A DNA stretch of 64,000 bases from Pirellulales bacterium (GTDB taxonomy: Bacteria; Planctomycetota; Planctomycetia; Pirellulales; Lacipirellulaceae), in assembly GCA_963841515.1 (NCBI GenBank), contig CAWJDB010000010.1:431237-495236 (forward strand), given 5' to 3'. A program made the translations under genes and the position numbers. The stretch's first letter is position 1; the number at the start of each line of letters is the position of its first letter. The notes beneath the pieces are model-generated. The model worked only from the letters and a program-made list of their open reading frames with translations. It was not told where the DNA came from and ran no database searches. Of the stretch, positions 7,137 to 37,527 are shown piece after piece.

Positions 7137-7803
7137 ATGATTCTTCTCATCGACAACTACGACAGCTTTGTCCATAACCTCGCCCGGTATTTCCAGCGGC
7201 TGGGGCAGGAGACGGTCGTGCGTGCGCAACGACGCGGCGACGGCCGCTGACGTGCGCCGGCTGGCGCCGCAGGCGATCGTGCTGTCCCCCGGGCCGTGTA
7301 CGCCCGCCGAAGCGGGCTGCTCCGTGGATGTCGTGCGACAGCTTGCTGACCGAGTCCCCATCTTAGGCGTGTGCCTTGGCCATCAGGCAATCGCGGCCGC
7401 GTTGGGCGCCCGGATTGTCCGCGCCGCGGAACCGCGACACGGCCGCACCTCGCTGGTCGAACACTCGCCGTCCGGACTGTTCGCCGGCCTGCCGACGCCG
7501 CTGGTCGCGTGCCGATATCATTCGCTAGTCGTCGACGAGGCCACGCTCCCTCGGGAGTTGCGTCCCACGGCCCACGCCGACGACGGCGAGCTGATGGCGT
7601 TCGAGCACGAAACCCTCCCGGTGTTTGGCGTGCAATTTCATCCCGAGGCGACGCTCACCGAGCATGGCTACGCGCTGCTGGCGAATTTCTTGCGCCTGGC
7701 CGGCGTAGCCATTAGCGGCGATCCAGCGGCGCTCGCGGCGTCGGAAAATCGCACTCCGCCCGCATTTGAGTTCGCCGAGCCTGCGCTGCCAGTCACATTT
7801 TGA
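7137..7803 (+). pseudogene. pabA: Glutamine amidotransferase (PabA/TrpG, component II); frameshift near 7230
   Basis: N-terminus MILLIDNYDSFVHNL starts at ATG 7137 in frame 0. The rest (GVCLGHQ, FGVQFHPE) is ORF 7168..7803 in frame +1. Confidence 0.65.
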
Positions 7804-31450: not shown

Positions 31451-32551
31451 CTACAACAAATTGACCACACGGTCGGCCAAACCCTTCTCGCCCAGGACCA
31501 CGTTGAGCTTGCCGCTCGCCGCGACACGCTCCAGGACTTCCAGCTCCCGTAGTCGCATGAGCGTCGGGTTGTCGGCCAACAGCCGGGCGGTATTCGCCTG
31601 ACTGCGCATGGCCGCCGTCTCCTCGCGGCGAACGATCAAGTTGGCCTCGGCAGCCTTCTTGGCCTCGGTCACCTTGTTCATCAGGTCCTTCATGTCGCCC
31701 GGCAGGATGACGTCGCGGACGCCCACCGACACGACCGCCAGACCCAACTCGCCGGCGCAACGGCGGACCGCTTCCTCAAACTCGCCGGTGACCACGTCCT
31801 TGTCGGTCAAGAACGAGTCGAGATCGCGAGCCGCCACGACGGCGCGCAACGCCAACTGAGCCTCTCGGTACAGCGACTGCATTGCGCCCTCGGCCACCGT
31901 GACCGACTGCCGCGCATCAGTCACTCGGTAGGTGACGACGGCGTTCATCCGCAGCGTCACCTTGTCGGCGGTCATGATTTCCTGACCGGCGACGTCCAGG
32001 GTCTGCTCGCGGAGGTCGACGTCGACCACTTTTGCGTCGGCCACGCCGCGCCACCAGGCATAGTCGCCCGGGGTAAGCGTTTCGACGTATTCGCCGTCCT
32101 GGAAGGCAACGCCCACGTGGCACCGCGGAACCGAGCAGACGTCGAGCACCTGCGCGGCATGCGGGCTGCGGACAATCACCTTGAAGTCCGGATGCTGGAA
32201 CCGAACTTCGCGGGCGTCGACGACCTCGATGCGCACCTCCTTAACGCCGGTCCAGTACGCATACAGACCCGGCGGCAGGAGGTGGCTGAAGCGACCGTCG
32301 ATCCACACCAGCGCACGCTGGTAGTCCTTTAGGTCGACGACTTCAGCGCGATCGGCTAGGGCGCCGCTCTTGACGATCATGTCGAGCTTTTCGTGCTGGA
32401 GCCACGGAGTGCGCTGCGACACGACGTCGACCTTGACATTCCAGAGCGGGTCAAACAGCCAATGCCGGCCGGCGCCGAGCACGCCGCGGAACTCGCCGTC
32501 GCGGAAGTACAGACCGACTTCGTAAGTGTGGATGTGAATTCGCTTGAACAT
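31451..32551 (-). CDS. SPFH/band-7 (slipin-like) domain protein
   Basis: 366-aa intact ORF starting MFKRIHIHTYEVGLYFRDGEF, with a C-terminal coiled-coil. Confidence 0.65.
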   Translation of the reverse strand: MFKRIHIHTYEVGLYFRDGEFRGVLGAGRHWLFDPLWNVKVDVVSQRTPWLQHEKLDMIVKSGALADRAEVVDLKDYQRALVWIDGRFSHLLPPGLYAYWTGVKEVRIEVVDAREVRFQHPDFKVIVRSPHAAQVLDVCSVPRCHVGVAFQDGEYVETLTPGDYAWWRGVADAKVVDVDLREQTLDVAGQEIMTADKVTLRMNAVVTYRVTDARQSVTVAEGAMQSLYREAQLALRAVVAARDLDSFLTDKDVVTGEFEEAVRRCAGELGLAVVSVGVRDVILPGDMKDLMNKVTEAKKAAEANLIVRREETAAMRSQANTARLLADNPTLMRLRELEVLERVAASGKLNVVLGEKGLADRVVNLL

Positions 32552-32950: not shown

Positions 32951-33028
32951 GCGGCGGTACGGGAGTCGAACCCGTGACAGCCAGGTTACGAGCCTGGTGC
33001 TCTATCCACTGAGCTAACCTTGGTGGCG
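32951..33028 (-). tRNA. tRNA-Thr(CGT)-like; acceptor stem imperfect (possible pseudo-tRNA)
   Basis: D arm GCTC/GAGC, anticodon arm CCAGG-CTCGTAA-CCTGG, T arm ACGGG-TTCGACT-CCCGT. Only 3-4 of 7 acceptor pairs. Confidence 0.4.
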
Positions 33029-33147
33029 GACGACAATCGCCTTTGCTCGATCCCATGTCCGGAACGCGCGACGCTAACCATGTCACTGAAGCGTGCGCAC
33101 CGCTGGGCCCGGCAACCCTCGACCTTGCTTGAAGCTGCTTGAAAAAA

Positions 33148-33218
33148 GACGCTGACAGGAGTCGAACCTGTTTCAAGCTGCTTTGTAGGCAGCCGCCTCG
33201 CCGTCAGGCTCCAGCGTC
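33148..33218 (-). tRNA. tRNA with anticodon ACA (Cys-type, unusual A34)
   Basis: Perfect acceptor GACGCTG/CAGCGTC, anticodon arm GCTGC-CTACAAA-GCAGC, T arm ACAGG-TTCGACT-CCTGT. Confidence 0.55.
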
Positions 33219-33226
33219 AATAAAAT

Positions 33227-33298
33227 GCCCTCGCCAGGAATCGAACCTGGTCTTCAACCTTCGCACGGTTGCGTGCTGGTCCGGCACACTCCGAGGAC
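33227..33298 (-). tRNA. tRNA-Arg(GCG)
   Basis: Acceptor GTCCTCG/CGAGGGC, D stem GTGT/GCAC, anticodon arm CAACC-GTGCGAA-GGTTG, T loop TTCGATT. Confidence 0.6.
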
Positions 33299-33303
33299 TC
33301 AGT

Positions 33304-33375
33304 ACCCAGTAGAGGAATTGAACCCCTTCTTCGACGTTCGAAGCGTCGCGTGCGATTCCGGCACACTCACCGGGC
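33304..33375 (-). tRNA. tRNA-Arg(TCG)
   Basis: Anticodon arm CGACG-CTTCGAA-CGTCG, T loop TTCAATT, acceptor GCCCGGT/ACTGGGT. Confidence 0.6.
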
Positions 33376-33381
33376 GAAAGC

Positions 33382-33453
33382 GTCTCGACTAGGATTCGAA
33401 CCTAGACCCGCCGCTTAGGACGCGGCTGTGCGTTCCCGTAACGCTTCCGAGAC
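33382..33453 (-). tRNA. tRNA-Arg(CCT)
   Basis: Acceptor GTCTCGG/TCGAGAC, D stem GCGT/ACGC, anticodon arm GCCGC-GTCCTAA-GCGGC, T arm CTAGG-TTCGAAT-CCTAG. Confidence 0.65.
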
Positions 33454-33459
33454 TCAAGG

Positions 33460-33530
33460 GCCGGCGATAGGATTCGAACCTACATTGGGCTCATTACAAA
33501 TGAGCTGCTTCCCCATCAAGCCACGCCGGC
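33460..33530 (-). tRNA. tRNA-Thr(TGT)
   Basis: Perfect cloverleaf: acceptor GCCGGCG/CGCCGGC, D GCTT/AAGC, anticodon GCTCA-TTTGTAA-TGAGC, T GTAGG-TTCGAAT-CCTAT. Confidence 0.8.
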
Positions 33531-33539
33531 ATAGGAAGC

Positions 33540-33608
33540 AGGCCCGCCAGGATTTGAACCCGGTGCGTCAGTTTTGGAGGCTGACTGCTCTCCCAGGAGC
33601 ACGGACCT
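33540..33608 (-). tRNA. tRNA-like gene with 9-nt anticodon loop (CCTCCAAAA); identity unclear
   Basis: Acceptor AGGTCCG/CGGGCCT, D arm GCTC-CTGGGA-GAGC, stem GTCAG/CTGAC, T arm CCGGG-TTCAAAT-CCTGG. Confidence 0.4.
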
Positions 33609-33646
33609 GTAAAAGCACCCGGGCGGCCGACCCGGCGCCGATCAAA

Positions 33647-34237
33647 TCACTTCTGCAATTCCACGTTCCAGTACGCCTCGCTGATGAACTTCGACCAACT
33701 CTCAAGACGAACCTGCTGATCGGCGTACACCGGCCTCCACGTTGGACACGTCGGCGCCTTCTTGAGGTTCATGTCCGCCTGCTTCGGCGTCCGGTCGGCC
33801 TTACGCTTATTGCAGGCAATGCAGGCGAGAACGCAGTTCGTCCAGCTCGAAACGACTCCCCGAGCGCGAGGAACCACGTGGTCGATCGTGAGCTCTTCGC
33901 CGCCCGGGTTGACGCCGCAATACTGGTACTGAAAGCGATCTCGCTTATAAATGTTCCGCCGACCGAACGTCACCGCTCTGATCGGCAATCGATCGAAACC
34001 CGTGCGCGTGATGACTTCCGGCACGCGCAACCGGAAGTTAACGCCGCTCATGAACGGAGCTCCGTCCCGCGGTCGCAGCCGCGACCAATCGTCCCACGAG
34101 AACGTCTGGTAATCGGCCGCGTCGACGACGCGCAGCATCTTTCCACAACAGCACGAGCGCACGCGCTGTGGTCGCGACGTGCACGGGCTGCCAGTTCTTG
34201 TTCAGAACGAGCACAGGTTGTTGTAGTGAAGTCATAG
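33647..34237 (-). pseudogene. HNH endonuclease embedded in the tRNA array; frameshift near 34140
   Basis: N-terminus MTSLQQPVLVLNKNWQPVHVATTARALVLL in 34038..34334. HNH core YQYCGV...LTIDHVVPRARGG..CVLACIACNKRKADR in 33647..34162. Confidence 0.65.
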
Positions 34238-34249
34238 CTACTCCCATGC

Positions 34250-34337
34250 GGAATGGGCAGGATTCGAACCTGCAAGGCTGTTGAAGGCTCGGCCGGCTTC
34301 CAAGTGGGGTTTCGTCGCCAAGTCGATTTGCCATTCC
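34250..34337 (-). tRNA. Class II (long variable arm, 88 nt) tRNA; anticodon not resolved (Leu/Ser-type)
   Basis: Perfect acceptor GGAATGG/CCATTCC, T arm GCAGG-TTCGAAT-CCTGC. Confidence 0.5.
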
Positions 34338-34348
34338 GTGTTGTCAGC

Positions 34349-34419
34349 CGCCCGCCGATGATTCGAACATCGCCTCACGATTTAGAAGATCGTCGTGCGT
34401 TCCACCACACTCGCGAGCG
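34349..34419 (-). tRNA. tRNA-Arg(TCT)
   Basis: Acceptor CGCTCGC/GCGGGCG, D GTGT/GCAC, anticodon ACGAT-CTTCTAA-ATCGT, T CGATG-TTCGAAT-CATCG. Confidence 0.75.
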
Positions 34420-34423
34420 CAGG

Positions 34424-34496
34424 GTGACCGAGCGGACTCGAACCGCCTCATACCTGGTTCACAGCCAGGCCCCTCGACCACTTCGGGATCGGTCAC
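34424..34496 (-). tRNA. tRNA-His(GTG)
   Basis: Acceptor GTGACCG/CGGTCAC, discriminator C, anticodon CCTGG-CTGTGAA-CCAGG, T loop TTCGAGT. Confidence 0.7.
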
Positions 34497-34499
34497 AGC

Positions 34500-34584
34500 G
34501 GAAGGCATGGGATTTGAACCCACACGGCTATTACGCCGCACGGTTTAGCAAACCGGCCCGACAAACCGTATTCGGCTACCTTCC
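34500..34584 (-). tRNA. tRNA-Ser(GCT), class II
   Basis: 85 nt. Acceptor GGAAGGT/GCCTTCC, anticodon CGGT-TTGCTAA-ACCG, variable arm CGGC-GTAATA-GCCG, T GTGGG-TTCAAAT-CCCAT. Confidence 0.7.
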
Positions 34585-34592
34585 GTTCGAGT

Positions 34593-34662
34593 GGAGCGCC
34601 GGGGAATCGAACCCCGATTTCCTGAGTGCAAACCAGGCGTCGTCCCGTTGGACCAGCGTCCC
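34593..34662 (-). tRNA. tRNA-Ala(TGC) with G3:U70
   Basis: Anticodon CCTGG-TTTGCAC-TCAGG, T CGGGG-TTCGATT-CCCCG. Short D loop and one acceptor mismatch. Confidence 0.55.
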
Positions 34663-34675
34663 GTACTTTTGAGTG

Positions 34676-34746
34676 GAGGATACCGGTCTCGAACCGGTGA
34701 CCTACAGACTGCCAGGCGAGTCGCTCACCCAACTGAGCTAATCCCC
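34676..34746 (-). tRNA. tRNA-like with 8-nt anticodon loop CGCCTGGC (GGC/Ala-like?)
   Basis: Acceptor GGGGATT/TATCCTC, D GCTC-AGTTGGGT-GAGC, stem GACT/AGTC, T ACCGG-TTCGAGA-CCGGT. Confidence 0.4.
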
Positions 34747-34751
34747 CGACA

Positions 34752-34821
34752 GGCCCAAGCGAGAATCGAACTCGCACCACCGCACTACCAATGCGGTGCT
34801 CTGCCACTGAGCTATCAGGCC
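34752..34821 (-). tRNA. tRNA-Thr(GGT)
   Basis: D GCTC-AGTGGCA-GAGC, anticodon CCGCA-TTGGTAG-TGCGG, T GCGAG-TTCGATT-CTCGC. Confidence 0.75.
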
Positions 34822-34825
34822 GTGG

Positions 34826-34894
34826 GGGGACATGGGAGTCGAACCCAATGTTTCAAGCTTATGAGGCTTCCGTGAAACCGTTTCACTCGTCCCC
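34826..34894 (-). tRNA. tRNA-Met(CAT)-type
   Basis: Acceptor GGGGACG/TGTCCCC, anticodon AAGC-CTCATAA-GCTT, T loop TTCGACT. The D arm is short. Confidence 0.55.
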
Positions 34895-34900
34895 GTCAGT

Positions 34901-34971
34901 AGTCCCTGCTGGAATCGAACCAGCTGTCTTCTCCGTGTCATGGAGACGCCGTGCCGGTGGGCCAAGGGACT
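34901..34971 (-). tRNA. tRNA-Val(GAC)
   Basis: Perfect acceptor AGTCCCT/AGGGACT, anticodon TCTCC-ATGACAC-GGAGA, T GCTGG-TTCGATT-CCAGC. Confidence 0.75.
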
Positions 34972-34980
34972 ACACGAGTG

Positions 34981-35054
34981 GTCGGGAGAGGGCTTCGAAC
35001 CTCCAAAATCACCGCGCTCTTGACGCGATCGCTTTTCCAGTTTGCGTACCCGAC
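34981..35054 (-). tRNA. tRNA-like; anticodon loop TCAAGAG (AAG with C33?) uncertain
   Basis: Acceptor GTCGGGT/TCCCGAC (6 of 7 pairs), palindromic stem CGCG/CGCG, T loop TTCGAAG. Confidence 0.35.
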
Positions 35055-35060
35055 CGAAGT

Positions 35061-35128
35061 AGCTAGCCCCGGAGTTGAACCGAGCGCGCCGAGCTTATGG
35101 GGCTCAAGTGGGCCAACCTGCGCTAGCA
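35061..35128 (-). tRNA. tRNA(CAT)-like with C33 and a compact D arm
   Basis: Anticodon TGAGC-CCCATAA-GCTCG, variable GCGCG, T CTCGG-TTCAACT-CCGGG, palindromic acceptor GCTAGC. Confidence 0.45.
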
Positions 35129-35130
35129 AT

Positions 35131-35202
35131 GACCCAAGCGGGATTCGAACCCGCGATTCCCGCCTTGAGAGGGCGGCGACTACTCCGCAAGTCCACTGGG
35201 CC
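35131..35202 (-). tRNA. tRNA-Glu(CTC)
   Basis: Acceptor GGCCCAG/TTGGGTC, anticodon CCGCC-CTCTCAA-GGCGG, T GCGGG-TTCGAAT-CCCGC. Confidence 0.7.
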
Positions 35203-35210
35203 ATATAAGT

Positions 35211-35297
35211 GAGACGTGAAGGAATCGAACCTCGCGTCGCCACCCCGCTGTTTAGTGACTCGTGTTCTACAGACACGGCCGCGAGGGAACGCCTCTC
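35211..35297 (-). tRNA. tRNA-Tyr(GTA), class II; acceptor with two mismatches
   Basis: 87 nt. Anticodon CGTGT-CTGTAGA-ACACG. D region TTCCC..GG and T arm GAGG-TTCGATT-CCTTC resemble bacterial tRNA-Tyr. Confidence 0.55.
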
Positions 35298-35304
35298 GTC
35301 GAGT

Positions 35305-35379
35305 GCCAAGGGCGGGAGTCGAGCCCGCGGAGTCACGAAGGTTTGAGCTTCGCCGCTTTCCCTGTTGCGTACCTTGGCA
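35305..35379 (-). tRNA. Class I tRNA with anticodon CAA (Leu codon UUG; unusual because Leu tRNAs are normally class II)
   Basis: Perfect acceptor GCCAAGG/CCTTGGC, anticodon CGAAG-CTCAAAC-CTTCG, T GCGGG-CTCGACT-CCCGC. Confidence 0.55.
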
Positions 35380-35385
35380 GCAAGC

Positions 35386-35459
35386 GCCCCCGACGCGATT
35401 TGAACGCGCGATCTCCTGCGTGACAGGCAGGCGTCCACTCCGGGCTGGACCACGAGGGC
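35386..35459 (-). tRNA. tRNA-Asp(GTC)
   Basis: D GTCC-AGCCCGGAGT-GGAC, anticodon CCTGC-CTGTCAC-GCAGG, T loop TTCAAAT. Confidence 0.75.
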
Positions 35460-35465
35460 AATAGT

Positions 35466-35540
35466 ACCGGCGGCAGGATTCGCTCTCTGCACTGTTCTCG
35501 TTCTAAGCGAGACGCCTCCTTCCGTTGGGCTACGCCGGCT
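35466..35540 (-). tRNA. Class I tRNA-like with anticodon TAG (Leu codon CUA) and an aberrant 10-nt T loop (AGAGCGAATC)
   Basis: Acceptor GCCGGCG/CGCCGGT, anticodon TCTCG-CTTAGAA-CGAGA. Confidence 0.45.
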
Positions 35541-35545
35541 TAAGT

Positions 35546-35617
35546 CGTCCCGAGTGGACTCGAACCACTGATCGTCTCCTTGTAAGGGAGCTGCCTTTGC
35601 CGCTAGGCCACGGGACG
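35546..35617 (-). tRNA. tRNA-Val(TAC)
   Basis: Perfect acceptor CGTCCCG/CGGGACG, anticodon CTCC-CTTACAA-GGAG, T AGTGG-TTCGAGT-CCACT. Confidence 0.7.
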
Positions 35618-35623
35618 TAAGGC

Positions 35624-35709
35624 GGAAGCGGTGAGACTCGAACTCACAAGCGGGTATAAGCCGCCAGCCGTTTTCAAGACGGTTTCCTCAGCCATTCGGA
35701 TCACTTCCG
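35624..35709 (-). tRNA. tRNA-Ser(TGA), class II
   Basis: 86 nt. Acceptor GGAAGTG/CGCTTCC, anticodon CCGT-CTTGAAA-ACGG, T GTGAG-TTCGAGT-CTCAC. Confidence 0.65.
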
Positions 35710-35714
35710 TAAGC

Positions 35715-35785
35715 AGCGGCGGTCGGTATCGAGCCGACTCCAACTGCTTCAAAGGCAGTCATGCTGACCTTTACACCACGCCGCA
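35715..35785 (-). tRNA. tRNA-Gln(TTG)
   Basis: Anticodon ACTGC-CTTTGAA-GCAGT, T GTCGG-CTCGATA-CCGAC, acceptor GCGGCG/CGCCGC. Confidence 0.65.
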
Positions 35786-35792
35786 CCAAACA

Positions 35793-35861
35793 GGCTGAGC
35801 GCCGAATCGAACGGCGTCCGACTGGTTCAGAGCCAGTCGTGCGACCACTACACCAGGGGCC
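35793..35861 (-). tRNA. tRNA-Gln(CTG)-like with defective acceptor stem (pseudo-tRNA or indel error)
   Basis: Anticodon ACTGG-CTCTGAA-CCAGT, T GCCG-TTCGATT-CGGC. The 5' GGCCCCT and 3' GCTCAGCC ends do not pair. Confidence 0.35.
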
Positions 35862-35864
35862 AAT

Positions 35865-35934
35865 ACGGGTGCGCGGAATTGAACCGCGGCTGTCAGTTTG
35901 GAAGACTCGCCGTGCTGCCGCTACACCACACCCG
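35865..35934 (-). tRNA. tRNA-Trp(CCA)-like; the 3' strand of the anticodon stem is scrambled
   Basis: Acceptor GCGGGTG/CACCCGT, D GTGT/GCAC, loop TTCCAAA after GAGTC, T CGCGG-TTCAATT-CCGCG. Confidence 0.4.
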
Positions 35935-35942
35935 CAGAAGCG

Positions 35943-36025
35943 GAAGCGGCAGGAGTTGAACCTGCAAGGCAGTTACGCTCGACTGTTTTCGAAACAGCTG
36001 CCGTCGCCAATCGGCTGGCGCTTCC
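35943..36025 (-). tRNA. tRNA-Ser(CGA), class II
   Basis: Perfect acceptor GGAAGCG/CGCTTCC, anticodon GCTGT-TTCGAAA-ACAGT, T GCAGG-TTCAACT-CCTGC. Confidence 0.65.
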
Positions 36026-36032
36026 ATGAAGC

Positions 36033-36108
36033 TGCGGAGGCTGGGATCGAACCAGCGCACGAACGTGTTTAACAGACACGCGCAACTACCAGCAGTTGCC
36101 CCTCCGCA
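36033..36108 (-). tRNA. tRNA-Asn(GTT)
   Basis: D CAAC-TGCTGGTA-GTTG, anticodon CGTGT-CTGTTAA-ACACG, T GCTGG-TTCGATC-CCAGC. Confidence 0.7.
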
Positions 36109-36115
36109 AAGGAGT

Positions 36116-36188
36116 CTGCGCGGTCGGATTTGAACCGACGATCTCGACGCCCCGAACGTCGCGGGATGCCCAACTTCCCCACGCGCAG
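36116..36188 (-). tRNA. tRNA-Pro(CGG)
   Basis: Perfect acceptor CTGCGCG/CGCGCAG, D GGGA/TCCC, anticodon CGACG-TTCGGGG-CGTCG, T GTCGG-TTCAAAT-CCGAC. Confidence 0.75.
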
Positions 36189-36197
36189 TCAAACGAA

Positions 36198-36267
36198 GCA
36201 TCCGGCGGGTTACGATCCCGCACCTCCACCTTGGCAAAGTAGCGTGCAACCACTACACCACGGACGC
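36198..36267 (-). tRNA. tRNA-Gly(GCC) with unusual T loop ATCGTAA
   Basis: Acceptor GCGTCCG/CGGATGC, D GTGT/GCAC, anticodon CTACT-TTGCCAA-GGTGG (two G-U pairs). Confidence 0.55.
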
Positions 36268-36298
36268 AGTTTTGGCTTGTCAAATTGTCAAAGACCAA

Positions 36299-36370
36299 AG
36301 GATCGGGTCAGAATCGCTCGTGACGTTGCGACGGTACGAGCGTCGCGTCTTACTACTAGACGACAGATCC
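36299..36370 (-). tRNA. tRNA-Thr(CGT)-like with variant T loop CGAGCGATTC
   Basis: D GTCT-AGTAGTA-AGAC, anticodon CGACG-CTCGTAC-CGTCG, acceptor GGATCTG/CCGATCC (one mismatch). Confidence 0.45.
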
Positions 36371-36381
36371 AGGTTTGCAGT

Positions 36382-36452
36382 GGGGCTGGTGAGAGTCGAA
36401 CTCACAACGTCCTGGTTAAAAGCCAGGTGCTTGGCCTTTCAGCTTCAACCCC
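36382..36452 (-). tRNA. tRNA-Lys(TTT)
   Basis: Acceptor GGGGTTG/CAGCCCC, anticodon CCTGG-CTTTTAA-CCAGG, T GTGAG-TTCGACT-CTCAC. Confidence 0.7.
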
Positions 36453-36461
36453 ATGTCAAGT

Positions 36462-36534
36462 TGGCGGCCTGGGAATCGAACCCAGATCGTCGAGTTAATA
36501 AGACCCAACAGGTCAAGTGAGACCGTCGCCGCCC
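36462..36534 (-). tRNA. tRNA-like, anticodon probably TAT (Ile AUA-type) in loop CTTATTA; 1:72 mismatch
   Basis: Stem TGGGT/ACTCG with two G-U pairs, T CTGGG-TTCGATT-CCCAG. Confidence 0.4.
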
Positions 36535-36537
36535 AAT

Positions 36538-36610
36538 GGCTTCGGCGAGATTCGCGCCTCGCACCAAATCGATTAAAAGTCGAGTATGCTGCCGTTGACA
36601 CCACGAAGCC
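36538..36610 (-). tRNA. tRNA-Lys(TTT)-like with 8-nt T loop GCGCGAAT
   Basis: Perfect acceptor GGCTTCG/CGAAGCC, anticodon TCGA-CTTTTAA-TCGA. Confidence 0.5.
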
Positions 36611-36669
36611 GATTCAGGCTCGCGACGTCGCGTTTCATTCGAAGTTGCATATCGTTTCTCCTAACAAGT

Positions 36670-36740
36670 GGTAGCCCTGCGAATCGAACGCAGCGCAACT
36701 CGCTTATCAGGCGGATTTGGGCAACCAGCCCTCGACTACC
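36670..36740 (-). tRNA. tRNA-Ile(GAT)
   Basis: Anticodon loop CTGATAA, T CTGCG-TTCGATT-CGCAG, 3' end GGCTACC-A resembles bacterial tRNA-Ile. Confidence 0.65.
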
Positions 36741-36754
36741 GTCGTCGTGTATCA

Positions 36755-36860
36755 GTCGGGCGCCTCGGGGTCGAACCGCCAGTATTCAATTTGTTGGCTC
36801 CTGCTCCCATGGCTCACCGTGCTCCCATCTGCACCTCCGCCCGATTACAAGTCAGCATGG
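36755..36860 (-). other. Unresolved spacer with a T-loop-like motif (GGCGGTTCGACCCCG); possibly a degenerate or indel-damaged class II tRNA
   Basis: No consistent cloverleaf could be drawn. Confidence 0.2.
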
Positions 36861-36865
36861 CAAGT

Positions 36866-36939
36866 ACCCTGTGGGGGATTCGAACCCGCCTCCTGCGGCT
36901 TGAAAGGCCGCCATCCTAAAACCAGTAGACCAACAGGGC
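36866..36939 (-). tRNA. tRNA-Glu(TTC)
   Basis: Anticodon GCGGC-CTTTCAA-GCCGC. The D region GTCT...AGGA matches the bacterial tRNA-Glu pattern. Confidence 0.65.
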
Positions 36940-36999
36940 GTGTTAAGTCGTTTCGTGTTTCTTAAGTTGAGTTTTTGCGCGCACCGCAAGCGCATTAGT

Positions 37000-37070
37000 G
37001 GGCTGGGAGGCGCTCGAATCCTCGTCTGTGGTTCTTCAGACCGCCGCTAGACCGTCTCAGCTACCAGCCC
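37000..37070 (-). tRNA. tRNA-Phe(GAA); first gene of the array
   Basis: Perfect acceptor GGGCTGG/CCAGCCC, D GCT/AGC, anticodon GCGGT-CTGAAGA-ACCAC, T loop with a 2-nt insertion (ATTCGAGCG). Confidence 0.6.
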
Positions 37071-37087: not shown

Positions 37088-37128
37088 GCGTGCGACGAGG
37101 CCAACAAAAAAGGCCCGGCGTCACGTTG
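37088..37128 (-). terminator. Rho-independent terminator (minus strand) upstream of the tRNA array; terminates the DUF1080 gene
   Basis: Hairpin AAGGCCTGGCGTCA-ACG-TGACGCCGGGCCTT followed by TTTTTTG on the minus strand. Confidence 0.6.
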
Positions 37129-37527
37129 ACGCCAGGCCTTGGTGGCTCACTTAAGAGTTTGGCCGAGCGTCATAGGCGCCTTCTATCGTTGGCGGGCGCA
37201 TAACCGGACTGTTCGTTCGCCCCTTGGGTGAACGGCAAGCCGGCGCTCCCTTGCGGCAAACTCGCCGCCGCGAGCACTGAGCGTATGAGACTCGACCGAA
37301 ACATGGATGGCACTCCTCCTAATGAAATATACCCGGCAGATCGCTTTGCGTTTCTCTGATAACTATAGATGTCGGATAATAACCGAAGTTCGCGCAGTCT
37401 TTTCGGAAAAACTGGGAATTTGGAAACTTTCTTCGATTACCCAAATTGCTCGCTGGCGCCGGCTGAACCCGTACTTATCGGTAAGCGAACCCGCTCTCGC
37501 TATCCTGCGAGGCTATCCGAAACCTGT

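What the first reader, a model, noticed from the sequence alone, without database searches (positions are those of the whole stretch)
33647..34237. HNH endonuclease gene embedded inside the tRNA array
The only protein-coding gene inside the array is an HNH nuclease (YQYCGV...IDHVVPRARGG...CNKRKADR). It sits in a lower-GC pocket between tRNA 7 and tRNA 8, with its start codon 13 nt from the 3' end of the next tRNA. HNH homing endonucleases are a hallmark of phage tRNA clusters and are thought to drive their spread. Finding one here supports a mobile or phage-derived origin for the array. The gene itself carries a single frameshift.
Basis: partly seen in the sequence, partly recalled or inferred. 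Interest (0 to 1): 0.55.

Follow-up and report, generated by a model that had tools for sequence, protein, structure and literature searches.

The report
Decayed HNH nuclease in tRNA array
A broken copy of a small DNA-cutting enzyme gene sits between two tRNA genes of a roughly 36-gene tRNA array; intact copies occupy the same slot in hundreds of related planctomycete arrays and are cleanly absent from others, as expected of a selfish homing nuclease cassette of an already described kind.

Summary
A minus-strand HNH nuclease gene (ATG 34235, stop ending 33647) is the only protein gene inside a ~36-gene tRNA array. It is a pseudogene: a 2-nt deletion at 34128|34127, plus loss of a zinc-ligand Cys (C104Y) and other hits at near-invariant sites. 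The 'lower-GC pocket' is not real (0.599 against 0.592 for the array).

The gene is not a casual invader. In 71 of 80 related Pirellulales loci an intact ortholog (dN/dS 0.04-0.25) lies on the tRNA strand, usually between tRNA-His and tRNA-Trp. It forms a compact cassette: a short Shine-Dalgarno leader, a 196-198-codon ORF and a covarying hairpin.

At least 120 metagenomic contigs carry a tRNA abutting the array-type tRNA-Trp with no HNH; in 37 it is tRNA-His, 3-26 nt away. The cassette is therefore a precise presence/absence polymorphism.

The protein is homologous (about 34%, full length) to the HNH beside the Anabaena trn operon and to one embedded in a Mycolicibacterium plasmid array. Relatives also lie in phage tRNA clusters.

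Most likely it is a free-standing homing-type nuclease cassette, here in its degeneration phase. A co-opted translational-stress role is the main rival. It is a new member of a known kind.

The parts
33647..34235 (-). HNH nuclease pseudogene. It has an N-terminal beta-beta-alpha-beta domain plus a CxxC...CxxC ββα-Me HNH domain, and reads as 196 aa once 2 nt are restored.
34127..34128 (-). Frameshift site. A GT dinucleotide is missing from cgtGTCgtcgac, which splits the ORF into frame A (34235 onwards) and frame B (GTG 34162 to 33647).
   Evidence: Alignment to 10 or more intact homologs and reconstruction.
33926..33928 (-). TAC (Tyr104) replaces the first Cys of the CxxC zinc motif. This Cys is at least 95% conserved among 80 homologs.
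33854..33856 (-). GTC (Val128) replaces the second Gly of the PRAxGG motif next to the catalytic His120 (33878-33880).
34241..34245 (-). GGGAG Shine-Dalgarno within the 13-nt leader between the tRNA remnant and the ATG.
   Evidence: Sequence. Related loci have comparable short purine-rich leaders.
33619..33635 (-). GC-rich hairpin between the HNH stop codon and tRNA-Trp. It is conserved in position across loci, with compensatory changes.
   Evidence: 9 pairs, 7 of them with changes on both sides
34249..34340 (-). Decayed tRNA-Ser(GGA) remnant. The acceptor and T arms are intact and the anticodon stem is broken.
34422..34496 (-). tRNA-His(GTG). It is the usual upstream neighbour of the cassette in relatives. 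In this clade tRNA-Arg(TCT) (34347-34419) and the Ser remnant lie between it and the HNH gene.
33538..33608 (-). tRNA-Trp(CCA) with the array-specific D-arm. It is the usual downstream neighbour of the cassette.
32956..37070 (-). tRNA array of about 36 tRNA or tRNA-like genes, running from Phe to Cys, all on the minus strand.
31451..32551 (-). SPFH/Band_7 protein gene immediately downstream of the array on the same strand. It accompanies the array in 25-29 of 80 related loci.

Best explanation
Window 33647-34235 (minus strand) is an inactivated copy of a roughly 196-aa two-domain HNH nuclease. This nuclease is the characteristic protein-coding passenger of the long tRNA arrays of Pirellulales planctomycetes.

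In intact relatives the gene forms a compact cassette. It consists of a leader of about 17-29 nt carrying a Shine-Dalgarno sequence, a 196-198-codon ORF, and a GC-rich hairpin. The cassette sits on the tRNA strand, usually directly after tRNA-His and directly before tRNA-Trp.

Inferred from this layout: the gene is transcribed within the tRNA polycistron. tRNA 3'-end processing and RNase P then release its mRNA, and the hairpin protects the 3' end.

Shown: the cassette is a precise presence/absence polymorphism at this one junction.

Inferred mechanism: the protein acts as a free-standing homing-type nuclease, as T4 SegB does. It nicks or cuts arrays that lack the cassette at or near the His-Trp junction. 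Repair from a cassette-bearing array then copies in the gene, and probably co-converts neighbouring tRNA genes. This would spread and homogenise arrays between and within genomes.

In this genome the nuclease is dead. It carries a 2-nt deletion, has lost a zinc ligand and has further changes at conserved sites. This is the degeneration phase of such an element, in an array whose tRNAs also show decay.
For: Identity and decay:
- The protein is an HNH nuclease.
- It is frameshifted.
- It deviates at 6 of 92 columns that are at least 95% conserved, the worst of 81 copies, for which the modal count is 1.
- It has 10 derived amino-acid changes on its lineage, against 3+2 on each sister lineage (L001, L002).

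Fixed position in arrays:
- 71 of 80 GTDB loci carry the gene inside a same-strand array. The upstream neighbour is tRNA-His in 57 and the downstream neighbour is Trp in 37 or Thr in 11, with stereotyped spacers.
- All 80 ORFs are intact and dN/dS is 0.04-0.25.
- The hairpin shows covariation.

Empty sites:
- The pattern for 'tRNA directly followed by array-type tRNA-Trp' has 0 hits in 91 HNH-bearing or reference loci.
- It hits at least 120 metagenomic contigs. In 37 of them tRNA-His is followed by Trp after 3-26 nt, with no HNH; the four arrays listed in full (L100, L135, L149, L167) share the HNH+ gene order.
- The flanks of an HNH-less array (L100) align to an HNH-bearing array (L006) with abutting breakpoints.
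- HNH-less arrays are interspersed among HNH-bearing ones on a flanking-tRNA tree, needing 4 state changes.

Same family in other arrays:
- The Anabaena HNH next to the trn operon is 34% identical (E 1e-24), with 24 tRNAs starting 200 nt downstream.
- A homolog is embedded in the pCBMA213_1 array.
- Homologs lie in phage tRNA clusters.

Literature:
- PMC8421152 and PMC5966550 already propose a SegB-like role in array spread.
Against: - No cleavage activity, target site or gene conversion has been shown for any member of this family.
- Strong purifying selection and a fixed position across an order also fit a host-beneficial, vertically inherited gene. On that view the HNH-less arrays are either ancestral or simple losses.
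- The tree showing interspersion rests on only 231 aligned tRNA positions and 8 HNH-less arrays, with no support values.
- The taxonomy of the HNH-less metagenomic contigs is unknown.
- The gene is co-regulated with a translational-stress regulon in Anabaena.
- Arrays are linked to SPFH, YbjN and Ro60 genes, which hints at a physiological role.
- 9 of 80 loci are solitary copies without tRNAs.
Confidence: 0.5

Rival explanations
1. The HNH protein is a domesticated component of a translational-stress or tRNA-quality-control module. It is co-expressed with the backup tRNA array, and with SPFH, YbjN and Ro60/RtcB-type partners. It acts on nucleic acids during stress rather than moving the array.
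For: - dN/dS is 0.04-0.25 and all 80 ORFs are intact.
- The gene is laid out for co-transcription, with a processing-compatible leader and hairpin.
- Band_7, YbjN and Ro60/TROVE genes are linked to the arrays.
- In Anabaena the homolog all8564 is induced together with the trn operon. It is derepressed in the trcR mutant along with RtcB and a slipin/SPFH protein.
- Phage homologs lie near RtcB-like ligase, CCA-adding enzyme and TROVE genes.
Against: - Many arrays of the same type lack the gene cleanly, so it is dispensable for the array.
- The window genome has let it decay.
- No RNA-related activity is known for this family.
- The closest structural and sequence relatives are DNA-cleaving HNH domains of Cas9, IscB and the Gme nickase.
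Confidence: 0.28
2. It is a McrA-type (type IV, modification-dependent) restriction or defence nuclease that merely happens to lie in the array. JGI's automatic names suggest this.
For: - Sources name many homologs '5-methylcytosine-specific restriction endonuclease McrA'.
Against: - The matches cover only the HNH core (about 71 residues). The N-terminal domain is unrelated to the McrA 5mC-reader.
- The placement inside tRNA arrays is fixed in three phyla and in phages, and chance does not explain that.
- No defence-island context was seen around the window.
- PADLOC was not run.
Confidence: 0.04
3. The gene is intact and functional in the organism, and the frameshift is an assembly or sequencing error.
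For: - The source is apparently a metagenome-type assembly (657 kb contig), and single indels are common errors in such assemblies.
- The neighbouring Band_7 gene is intact.
Against: - The lesion is a 2-nt deletion in a GTC/CGT repeat context, not a homopolymer.
- Independent substitutions hit near-invariant residues, including a zinc-ligand Cys.
- Adjacent array members are also decayed: the Ser(GGA) remnant and Cys with anticodon ACA.
Confidence: 0.1
4. It is an OMEGA-like (IshB-type: PLMP + HNH, about 180 aa) nuclease that uses an RNA to find its DNA target. The guide or cofactor could be an adjacent tRNA or the flanking hairpin.
For: - The best sequence matches of the HNH domain are IscB and Cas9d.
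- The predicted N-terminal topology is beta-beta-alpha-beta, like the IF3-N-like PLMP fold described in PMC9581776.
- The size and two-domain layout fit IshB as summarised in PMC11610941 and PMC10734217.
Against: - None of 100 family members matches Pfam PF14239 (RRXRR), the family annotated on the one retrieved relative of the DtIsrB PLMP segment, at E<=1.
- An HMM of the N-terminal domain scores the DtIsrB PLMP segment no better than shuffled sequences.
- No IS200/IS605 neighbour or omega-RNA-like conserved region appears in the neighbour clustering.
Confidence: 0.05

Closest known systems
HNH endonuclease all8564 (WP_010999558.1) next to the trn L-array of Anabaena/Nostoc sp. PCC 7120 plasmid delta (Santamaria-Gomez et al. 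2021, PMC8421152; TrcR regulon, PMC10272220)
   Same: - It is a full-length homolog: 34% identity, E 1e-24, covering both the N-terminal domain and the HNH domain.
- It lies on the same strand as a long tRNA array, which starts 200 nt downstream.
- The literature proposes that it spreads the array.
   Different: - It lies upstream of the array under its own TrcR-controlled promoter, rather than embedded between two tRNAs.
- It is on a plasmid.
- It is 178 aa rather than 196.
- The array gene order is unrelated.
HNH genes embedded in Mycobacterium tRNA array units (Morgado & Vicente 2018, PMC5966550; Yano et al. 2026, PMC12803027)
   Same: - A single HNH gene is embedded among the tRNAs of a 26-32-gene array.
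- The pCBMA213_1 copy is a homolog (34% identity over residues 8-171). It sits between tRNA-Ala and tRNA-Glu on the tRNA strand.
   Different: - The hosts are Actinomycetota plasmids and phages.
- The insertion site and array order differ.
- These arrays sit on demonstrably mobile replicons.
Phage T4 SegB and other free-standing homing endonucleases in phage tRNA regions (cited in PMC8421152; PMC13096335)
   Same: - It is a free-standing nuclease gene between tRNA genes.
- There is a presence/absence polymorphism at a fixed site.
- The proposed co-conversion of flanking tRNA genes is the working model adopted here.
   Different: - SegB is a GIY-YIG enzyme and is not homologous.
- SegB's activity is experimentally shown, whereas nothing has been shown for this family.
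IshB / IscB-type HNH domains of OMEGA systems and Cas9d (Altae-Tran 2021 as summarised in PMC11610941 and PMC10734217; PDB 9k30, 9k32, 8dmb)
   Same: - These are the closest HNH-domain sequences and folds.
- The protein is small, with an N-terminal beta-rich domain followed by HNH.
   Different: - There is no significant PLMP (PF14239) sequence signal.
- There is no transposon or omega-RNA context.
- Membership is not established.
Gme HNH nicking endonuclease, Geobacter metallireducens (PDB 4H9D)
   Different: It is a single-domain protein of about 110 aa, with no N-terminal domain and no tRNA context.

Membership tests
HNH (ββα-Me) nuclease superfamily | A significant match to HNH profiles, with the D-H...N...N catalytic residues and CxxC...CxxC zinc ligands. 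| tested here: met
   PF01844 7.5e-10, PF14279 and PF13395 all match. D119, H120, N134 and N143 are present. In the window copy one of the four Cys is mutated (C104Y).
tRNA-array (L-array) associated HNH family (all8564-like) | Full-length homology to the HNH beside or inside long tRNA arrays of other phyla. | tested here: met
   BLASTP against the Anabaena protein gives 34% identity, E 1e-24, over both domains. The Mycolicibacterium pCBMA213_1 homolog lies inside a 29-tRNA array.
tRNA-array (L-array) associated HNH family (all8564-like) | Physical linkage to an array of at least 20 same-strand tRNA genes. | tested here: met
   The window array has about 36 tRNA-like genes. 71 of 80 related loci are linked to arrays.
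Free-standing homing endonuclease gene | A precise presence/absence polymorphism of the gene at one conserved genomic site. | tested here: met
   The empty-site pattern has 0 hits in HNH loci and at least 120 in metagenomes. Thirty-seven arrays have His-Trp spacers of 3-26 nt, and flank alignments have abutting breakpoints.
Free-standing homing endonuclease gene | The enzyme cleaves the gene-less allele at or near the insertion site, and the gene is copied in by repair. | not testable with these tools
   This needs biochemistry or genetics. No experimental data for this family were found in the literature searched.
Free-standing homing endonuclease gene | A patchy distribution that requires repeated gain or loss. 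| tested here: inconclusive
   An NJ tree of flanking tRNAs implies 4 state changes, but it uses 231 columns and 8 HNH-less arrays and has no support values.
IshB (OMEGA; PLMP + HNH) | An N-terminal PLMP domain (Pfam RRXRR PF14239-type). | tested here: not met
IshB (OMEGA; PLMP + HNH) | An IS200/IS605-type transposon context or an associated omega-RNA. | tested here: not met
   Clustering of neighbour ORFs over 81 loci finds only Band_7, YbjN, TROVE and unnamed families, and no shared transposase family. The solitary copies lie in ordinary contexts. No dedicated TnpA profile scan was run.
McrA-type modification-dependent restriction endonuclease | An N-terminal modified-cytosine reader domain plus a C-terminal HNH. 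| tested here: not met
   Fold matches to EcoKMcrA (6ghc) are confined to about 71 residues of the HNH core. There is no profile hit outside HNH.

The most novel reading that the evidence does not exclude
The array-embedded two-domain HNH protein is a minimal relative of IscB/IshB. It would use an RNA from its own locus to recognise the matching DNA of cassette-less arrays, making it a tRNA- or RNA-guided homing nuclease. The RNA could be an adjacent tRNA or the conserved flanking hairpin transcript. That would tie tRNA arrays to the ancestry of RNA-guided nucleases.
Probability: 0.04. Interest if true: 0.85.

Novelty: new member of a known kind. Interest (0 to 1): 0.42.

Why it matters
HNH genes in or beside long tRNA arrays have been described in cyanobacteria, mycobacteria and phages, but their role is untested.

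This locus belongs to a large planctomycete set. There were 391 tblastn-confirmed stretches in GTDB species representatives, often two or three arrays per genome.

In this set one nuclease family occupies one fixed inter-tRNA slot under strong purifying selection. Sister arrays lack it cleanly, and this copy is caught decaying.

That gives a natural series of intact, absent and degenerating states. It also gives a defined candidate target, the His-Trp junction. Together they allow a direct test of whether these nucleases move or homogenise tRNA arrays, or instead serve a stress response together with the linked SPFH and Ro60 genes.

For this window itself the result is modest: an ordinary pseudogene of a known type of array passenger.

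Tried and rejected
- **First structure prediction.** The model built from 16 close homologs failed (pLDDT 36). It was replaced by a 100-sequence alignment, which gave pLDDT 93.
- **PLMP homology by sequence.** This was negative or inconclusive. The HMM against the DtIsrB seed scored no better than shuffles. PF14239 matched 0 of 100 family members. A word-index search with the 55-aa PLMP seed returned a single protein.
- **Short tblastn 'HNH remnants' in HNH-less arrays.** These are artefacts. The query ORFs carried N-terminal extensions that read through upstream tRNAs (seen).
- **Altae-Tran 2021.** The paper could not be read, so IshB is cited from two reviews.
- **Solitary HNH loci.** They were inspected by eye for transposases and nothing obvious was found. 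No profile scan was run.
- **Promoter scan.** It gave no more matches than shuffled sequence, so no promoter is claimed.
- **The lower-GC claim.** It was rejected.
- **A McrA restriction role.** It was rejected as a family assignment.

Full report
**1. What is in the sequence**

The feature is on the minus strand. An ATG at 34235-34233 follows a GGGAG Shine-Dalgarno (34245-34241). It opens a reading frame, MTSLQQPVLVLNKNWQPVHVATTARALVLLWKDAAR..., that runs into a stop. A second frame, from GTG 34162 to the TGA ending at 33647, encodes the remaining 171 residues, including ...IDHVVPRARGV...CNKRKADR....

Aligned to intact homologs, the two pieces join at LLWKDAAR|VVDAADY. The window reads gcgcgt|cgtcgac where cgtGTCgtcgac is needed. 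Two nucleotides are therefore missing between 34128 and 34127. Restoring them gives 196 aa, which matches the 196-198 aa of the homologs.

The protein matches Pfam HNH (PF01844, 7.5e-10), HNH_5 and HNH_4. It matches PHROG 16726 over its full length at 3e-28.

ARAGORN finds 29 tRNA genes on the minus strand between 33147 and 37070. Rfam adds several that ARAGORN misses, plus two partial ones. The array therefore holds about 36 tRNA-like units. The HNH ORF is the only gap large enough for a gene.

It aligns to the tRNA-Ser(GGA) that ARAGORN calls at the same place in locus L010. Its anticodon stem is broken, and neither ARAGORN nor Rfam (E<=1) recognises it. The ATG does lie 13 nt after its 3' end.

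Three details of the finding need correction:
- The gene ends at 34235, not 34237.
- 'RARGG' is RARGV.
- There is no lower-GC pocket. The gene is 0.599 GC, the rest of the array 0.592 and the window 0.639.

**2. The copy in the window is decaying**

Besides the frameshift, the window copy departs from the consensus at 6 of the 92 columns that are at least 95% conserved among 80 homologs. That is the highest count of all 81 sequences (30 copies have none and 35 have one).

Polarised with an outgroup, 10 substitutions are derived on the window lineage, against 3+2 on each sister lineage (L001, L002). They include C104Y, the first Cys of the CxxC...CxxC zinc site (TAC at 33928-33926), and G128V in PRAxGG next to the catalytic His120.

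The lesion is a dinucleotide loss in a GTC/CGT repeat, not a homopolymer. The adjacent tRNA-Ser(GGA) is also degraded. The terminal tRNA-Cys carries ACA instead of the GCA seen in most related arrays. I therefore read the gene as a true pseudogene. Only the raw reads can exclude an assembly error, which I rate at about 10%.

**3. The gene is a fixed, conserved part of a planctomycete array**

A protein search found 2,733 homologs at E<=1e-5. The best were 65-87% identical, 196-198 aa long and labelled Planctomycetaceae. An all-against-all HMMER search counted 356 clusters (at 50% identity) at E<=1e-30.

In one genome per GTDB species, 391 stretches encode a relative. The best 80 come from Pirellulales, Lacipirellulaceae, Thermoguttaceae and similar MAGs.

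In 71 of these 80 loci the gene lies within a large tRNA array on the same strand. The gene order is Phe-Glu-Pro-Ile-Lys ... Ser(gct)-Arg(tct)-[Ser(gga)]-His-HNH-Trp-Thr(tgt)-Arg x3-4-Cys.
- The tRNA just upstream is His(gtg) in 57 loci and Arg(tct) in 6, the latter including the window's closest relatives.
- The tRNA just downstream is Trp in 37 loci and Thr(tgt) in 11.
- The spacers are stereotyped.

Several genomes carry two or three such arrays, each with its own HNH. One example is L012, L020 and L050, which lie on a single contig.

All 80 ORFs are intact. Pairwise dN/dS is 0.04-0.25, including between paralogous arrays of one genome.

The cassette is compact:
- The leader is about 17-29 nt, with GGAG or AAGGA.
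- A GC-rich hairpin sits between the stop codon and the next tRNA in virtually every locus.
- The consensus hairpin has 9 pairs, 7 of them with compensatory changes.
- It is mostly not followed by a T-run.
- In the window it lies at 33635-33619.

My inference, not shown, is that the ORF is transcribed as part of the tRNA polycistron and excised by tRNA-processing enzymes, with the hairpin stabilising the 3' end.

**4. The cassette is cleanly absent from other arrays of the same type**

I designed a pattern for 'a tRNA T-arm followed within 20-50 nt by the array-specific tRNA-Trp D-arm'. It has no match in the 91 loci already held.

In these contigs the tRNA before Trp is His(gtg) in 37 cases and Ser(gga) in 15. 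The full arrays (for example L100, L135, L149 and L167) have the same gene order as the HNH-bearing arrays. Their His-Trp spacers are only 3-26 nt, with a mode of 5.

The flanks of L100 align at about 80% identity to both flanks of HNH-bearing L006, with abutting breakpoints. The difference between them is exactly leader + ORF + hairpin.

On a neighbour-joining tree of His+Trp+Thr sequences, the 8 usable HNH-less arrays fall in several places among 28 HNH-bearing ones, implying 4 state changes. This is weak evidence: 231 columns and no support values.

Short tblastn hits that looked like remnants were artefacts of query ORFs reading through upstream tRNAs.

**5. The same protein family accompanies tRNA arrays elsewhere**

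- **Anabaena.** tblastn against plasmids finds the HNH gene of Nostoc/Anabaena PCC 7120 plasmid delta (WP_010999558.1). It is 34% identical over both domains (E 1e-24), and 24 tRNA genes start 200 nt downstream on the same strand. From its position immediately upstream of the trn operon on pCC7120delta, I take this to be the gene called all8564 in the literature; the locus-tag equivalence was not checked. all8564 is conserved upstream of cyanobacterial L-arrays and co-induced with the trn operon, and it has been proposed to spread arrays as T4 SegB does (PMC8421152). It belongs to the TrcR regulon together with RtcB and a slipin/SPFH protein (PMC10272220).
- **Mycobacteria.** A homolog (34% identity) is embedded between tRNA-Ala and tRNA-Glu in the 29-tRNA array of Mycolicibacterium plasmid pCBMA213_1. 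This matches reports that an HNH gene is the most widespread CDS in mycobacterial arrays (PMC5966550; PMC12803027).
- **Phages.** Homologs at 25-40% identity sit inside or beside tRNA clusters in Tunturiibacter phage Tunturi_5, Synechococcus phage S-CBWM1, Myxococcus phage Mx1 and Arthrobacter phage Mimi. S-TIM5 and an uncultured 595-kb phage are exceptions.
- **IMG/VR.** Two contigs carry Pirellulales-type arrays. About half of the more distant jumbo-phage homologs adjoin arrays.
- **Solitary copies.** Other family members are solitary, as are 9 of the 80 planctomycete loci.

Tran et al. (PMC4758250) list Planctomycetes among the phyla with a few array units. I found no description of this conserved planctomycete array with its HNH slot.

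**6. The protein**

A 100-sequence alignment gave a confident model (pLDDT 93, pTM 0.77). Residues 7-78 form an N-terminal beta-beta-alpha-beta... domain. A ββα-Me HNH domain follows.

Sequence and fold searches place the HNH domain closest to those of IscB, Cas9d/YnpsCas9 and the Geobacter Gme nickase. EcoKMcrA matches only through the HNH core.

Sequence tests do not support this link, however. None of 100 family members hits Pfam PF14239 at E<=1. A domain HMM does not score the DtIsrB PLMP segment above shuffled sequences. No transposon or omega-RNA context is present. I therefore do not file the protein under IshB.

**7. Mechanism and rivals**

The best-supported reading (about 0.5) is a free-standing homing-type nuclease cassette specific for the His-Trp junction of this array type.
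- Shown: nuclease family, fixed site, precise presence/absence, intact and constrained copies, multiple arrays per genome, and recurrence of the family in arrays of other phyla and phages.
- Inferred: cleavage of cassette-less arrays, repair-mediated copying, and co-conversion of flanking tRNAs.

The window copy is the degeneration stage.

The main rival (about 0.28) is a co-opted role in a translational-stress or RNA-quality-control module. Purifying selection, the Anabaena co-regulation and the linked SPFH, YbjN and Ro60 genes all favour it. The two readings are not exclusive.

Three further readings are minor:
- McrA-type restriction (about 0.04).
- An assembly-error frameshift (about 0.1).
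- An RNA-guided IshB-like nuclease (about 0.05).

**8. Verdict**

The HNH is of the kind associated with array spread. But here it is an ancient, position-fixed and now dead component. By itself it does not show that this array is phage-derived, and the flanking genes scanned are ordinary chromosomal genes.

Novelty: a new member of a known kind.

Interest is moderate. The planctomycete series of intact, absent and decayed cassettes, with its defined junction, makes the long-standing hypothesis that these nucleases move tRNA arrays directly testable.

Noticed in passing
window 31451-32551 (-); L023:10802-11893, L023:11929-12702, L023:13814-15511; L007:3020-4798; L212:9737-10849; L213:9224-10882: The arrays carry further conserved protein genes on the tRNA strand. 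An SPFH/Band_7 protein is present in 25-29 of 80 loci, including the window, and sometimes lies inside the array. A YbjN-domain protein and a Ro60/TROVE+vWA (Rsr-like) protein also recur. [quoted passage not shown]
   Followed up: partly
window 33147-33218, 34978-35055, 34673-34747, 35801-35855, 32956-33019: Several array tRNAs look altered or decayed. tRNA-Cys has anticodon ACA where most related arrays have GCA. tRNA-Leu has AAG, another A34. One tRNA has an abnormal anticodon loop (ARAGORN '???'; Ala-GGC in relatives). There are two partial tRNAs. Some units are called only by Rfam or score below its gathering threshold (33302-33375 at 23 bits).
   Followed up: partly
L027:7007-7395; L020:6652-6743; L041:6618-6710, 7343-7436; L044:2386-2478 and others: Many array 'tRNAs' in related loci are 87-97 nt long for isotypes that should be about 73 nt (Gly, Arg, Phe, Pro, Val). 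This suggests recurrent inserts or introns of about 20 nt.
   Followed up: no
L112, L134, L163, L187 (metagenomic HNH-less arrays): ARAGORN calls a tRNA with anticodon TTA, a UAA-reading suppressor type, directly upstream of the array-type tRNA-Trp in four contigs.
   Followed up: no
window 33538-33608 and tRNA-Trp of 38 related loci: The array tRNA-Trp has a distinctive, conserved D-arm (GTSCTCCTGGGAGAGSA). This made a specific search pattern possible. In the window it scores only 29.8 bits against Rfam tRNA.
   Followed up: partly
window 37110-37140 (-): A strong terminator-like hairpin (14 pairs followed by TTTTTGTT) lies only about 40 nt upstream of the first array gene, tRNA-Phe. This leaves very little room for an array promoter, and no sigma-70-like promoter was found above the shuffle expectation.
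   Followed up: no
L213:12290-15544: One Pirellulales-type array, in an IMG/VR contig, is followed within about 5 kb by two ParB-like genes and a large serine recombinase. At least some arrays therefore sit on mobile or episomal elements. Nothing comparable was seen next to the window's array.
   Followed up: partly
L012, L020, L050 (one contig); L014, L026, L031; L071, L080; L008, L013; L043, L048: Single genomes carry two or three complete array+HNH copies, or duplicated solitary HNH segments. This implies tRNA gene counts well above 100 and intragenomic duplication of the whole module.
   Followed up: partly
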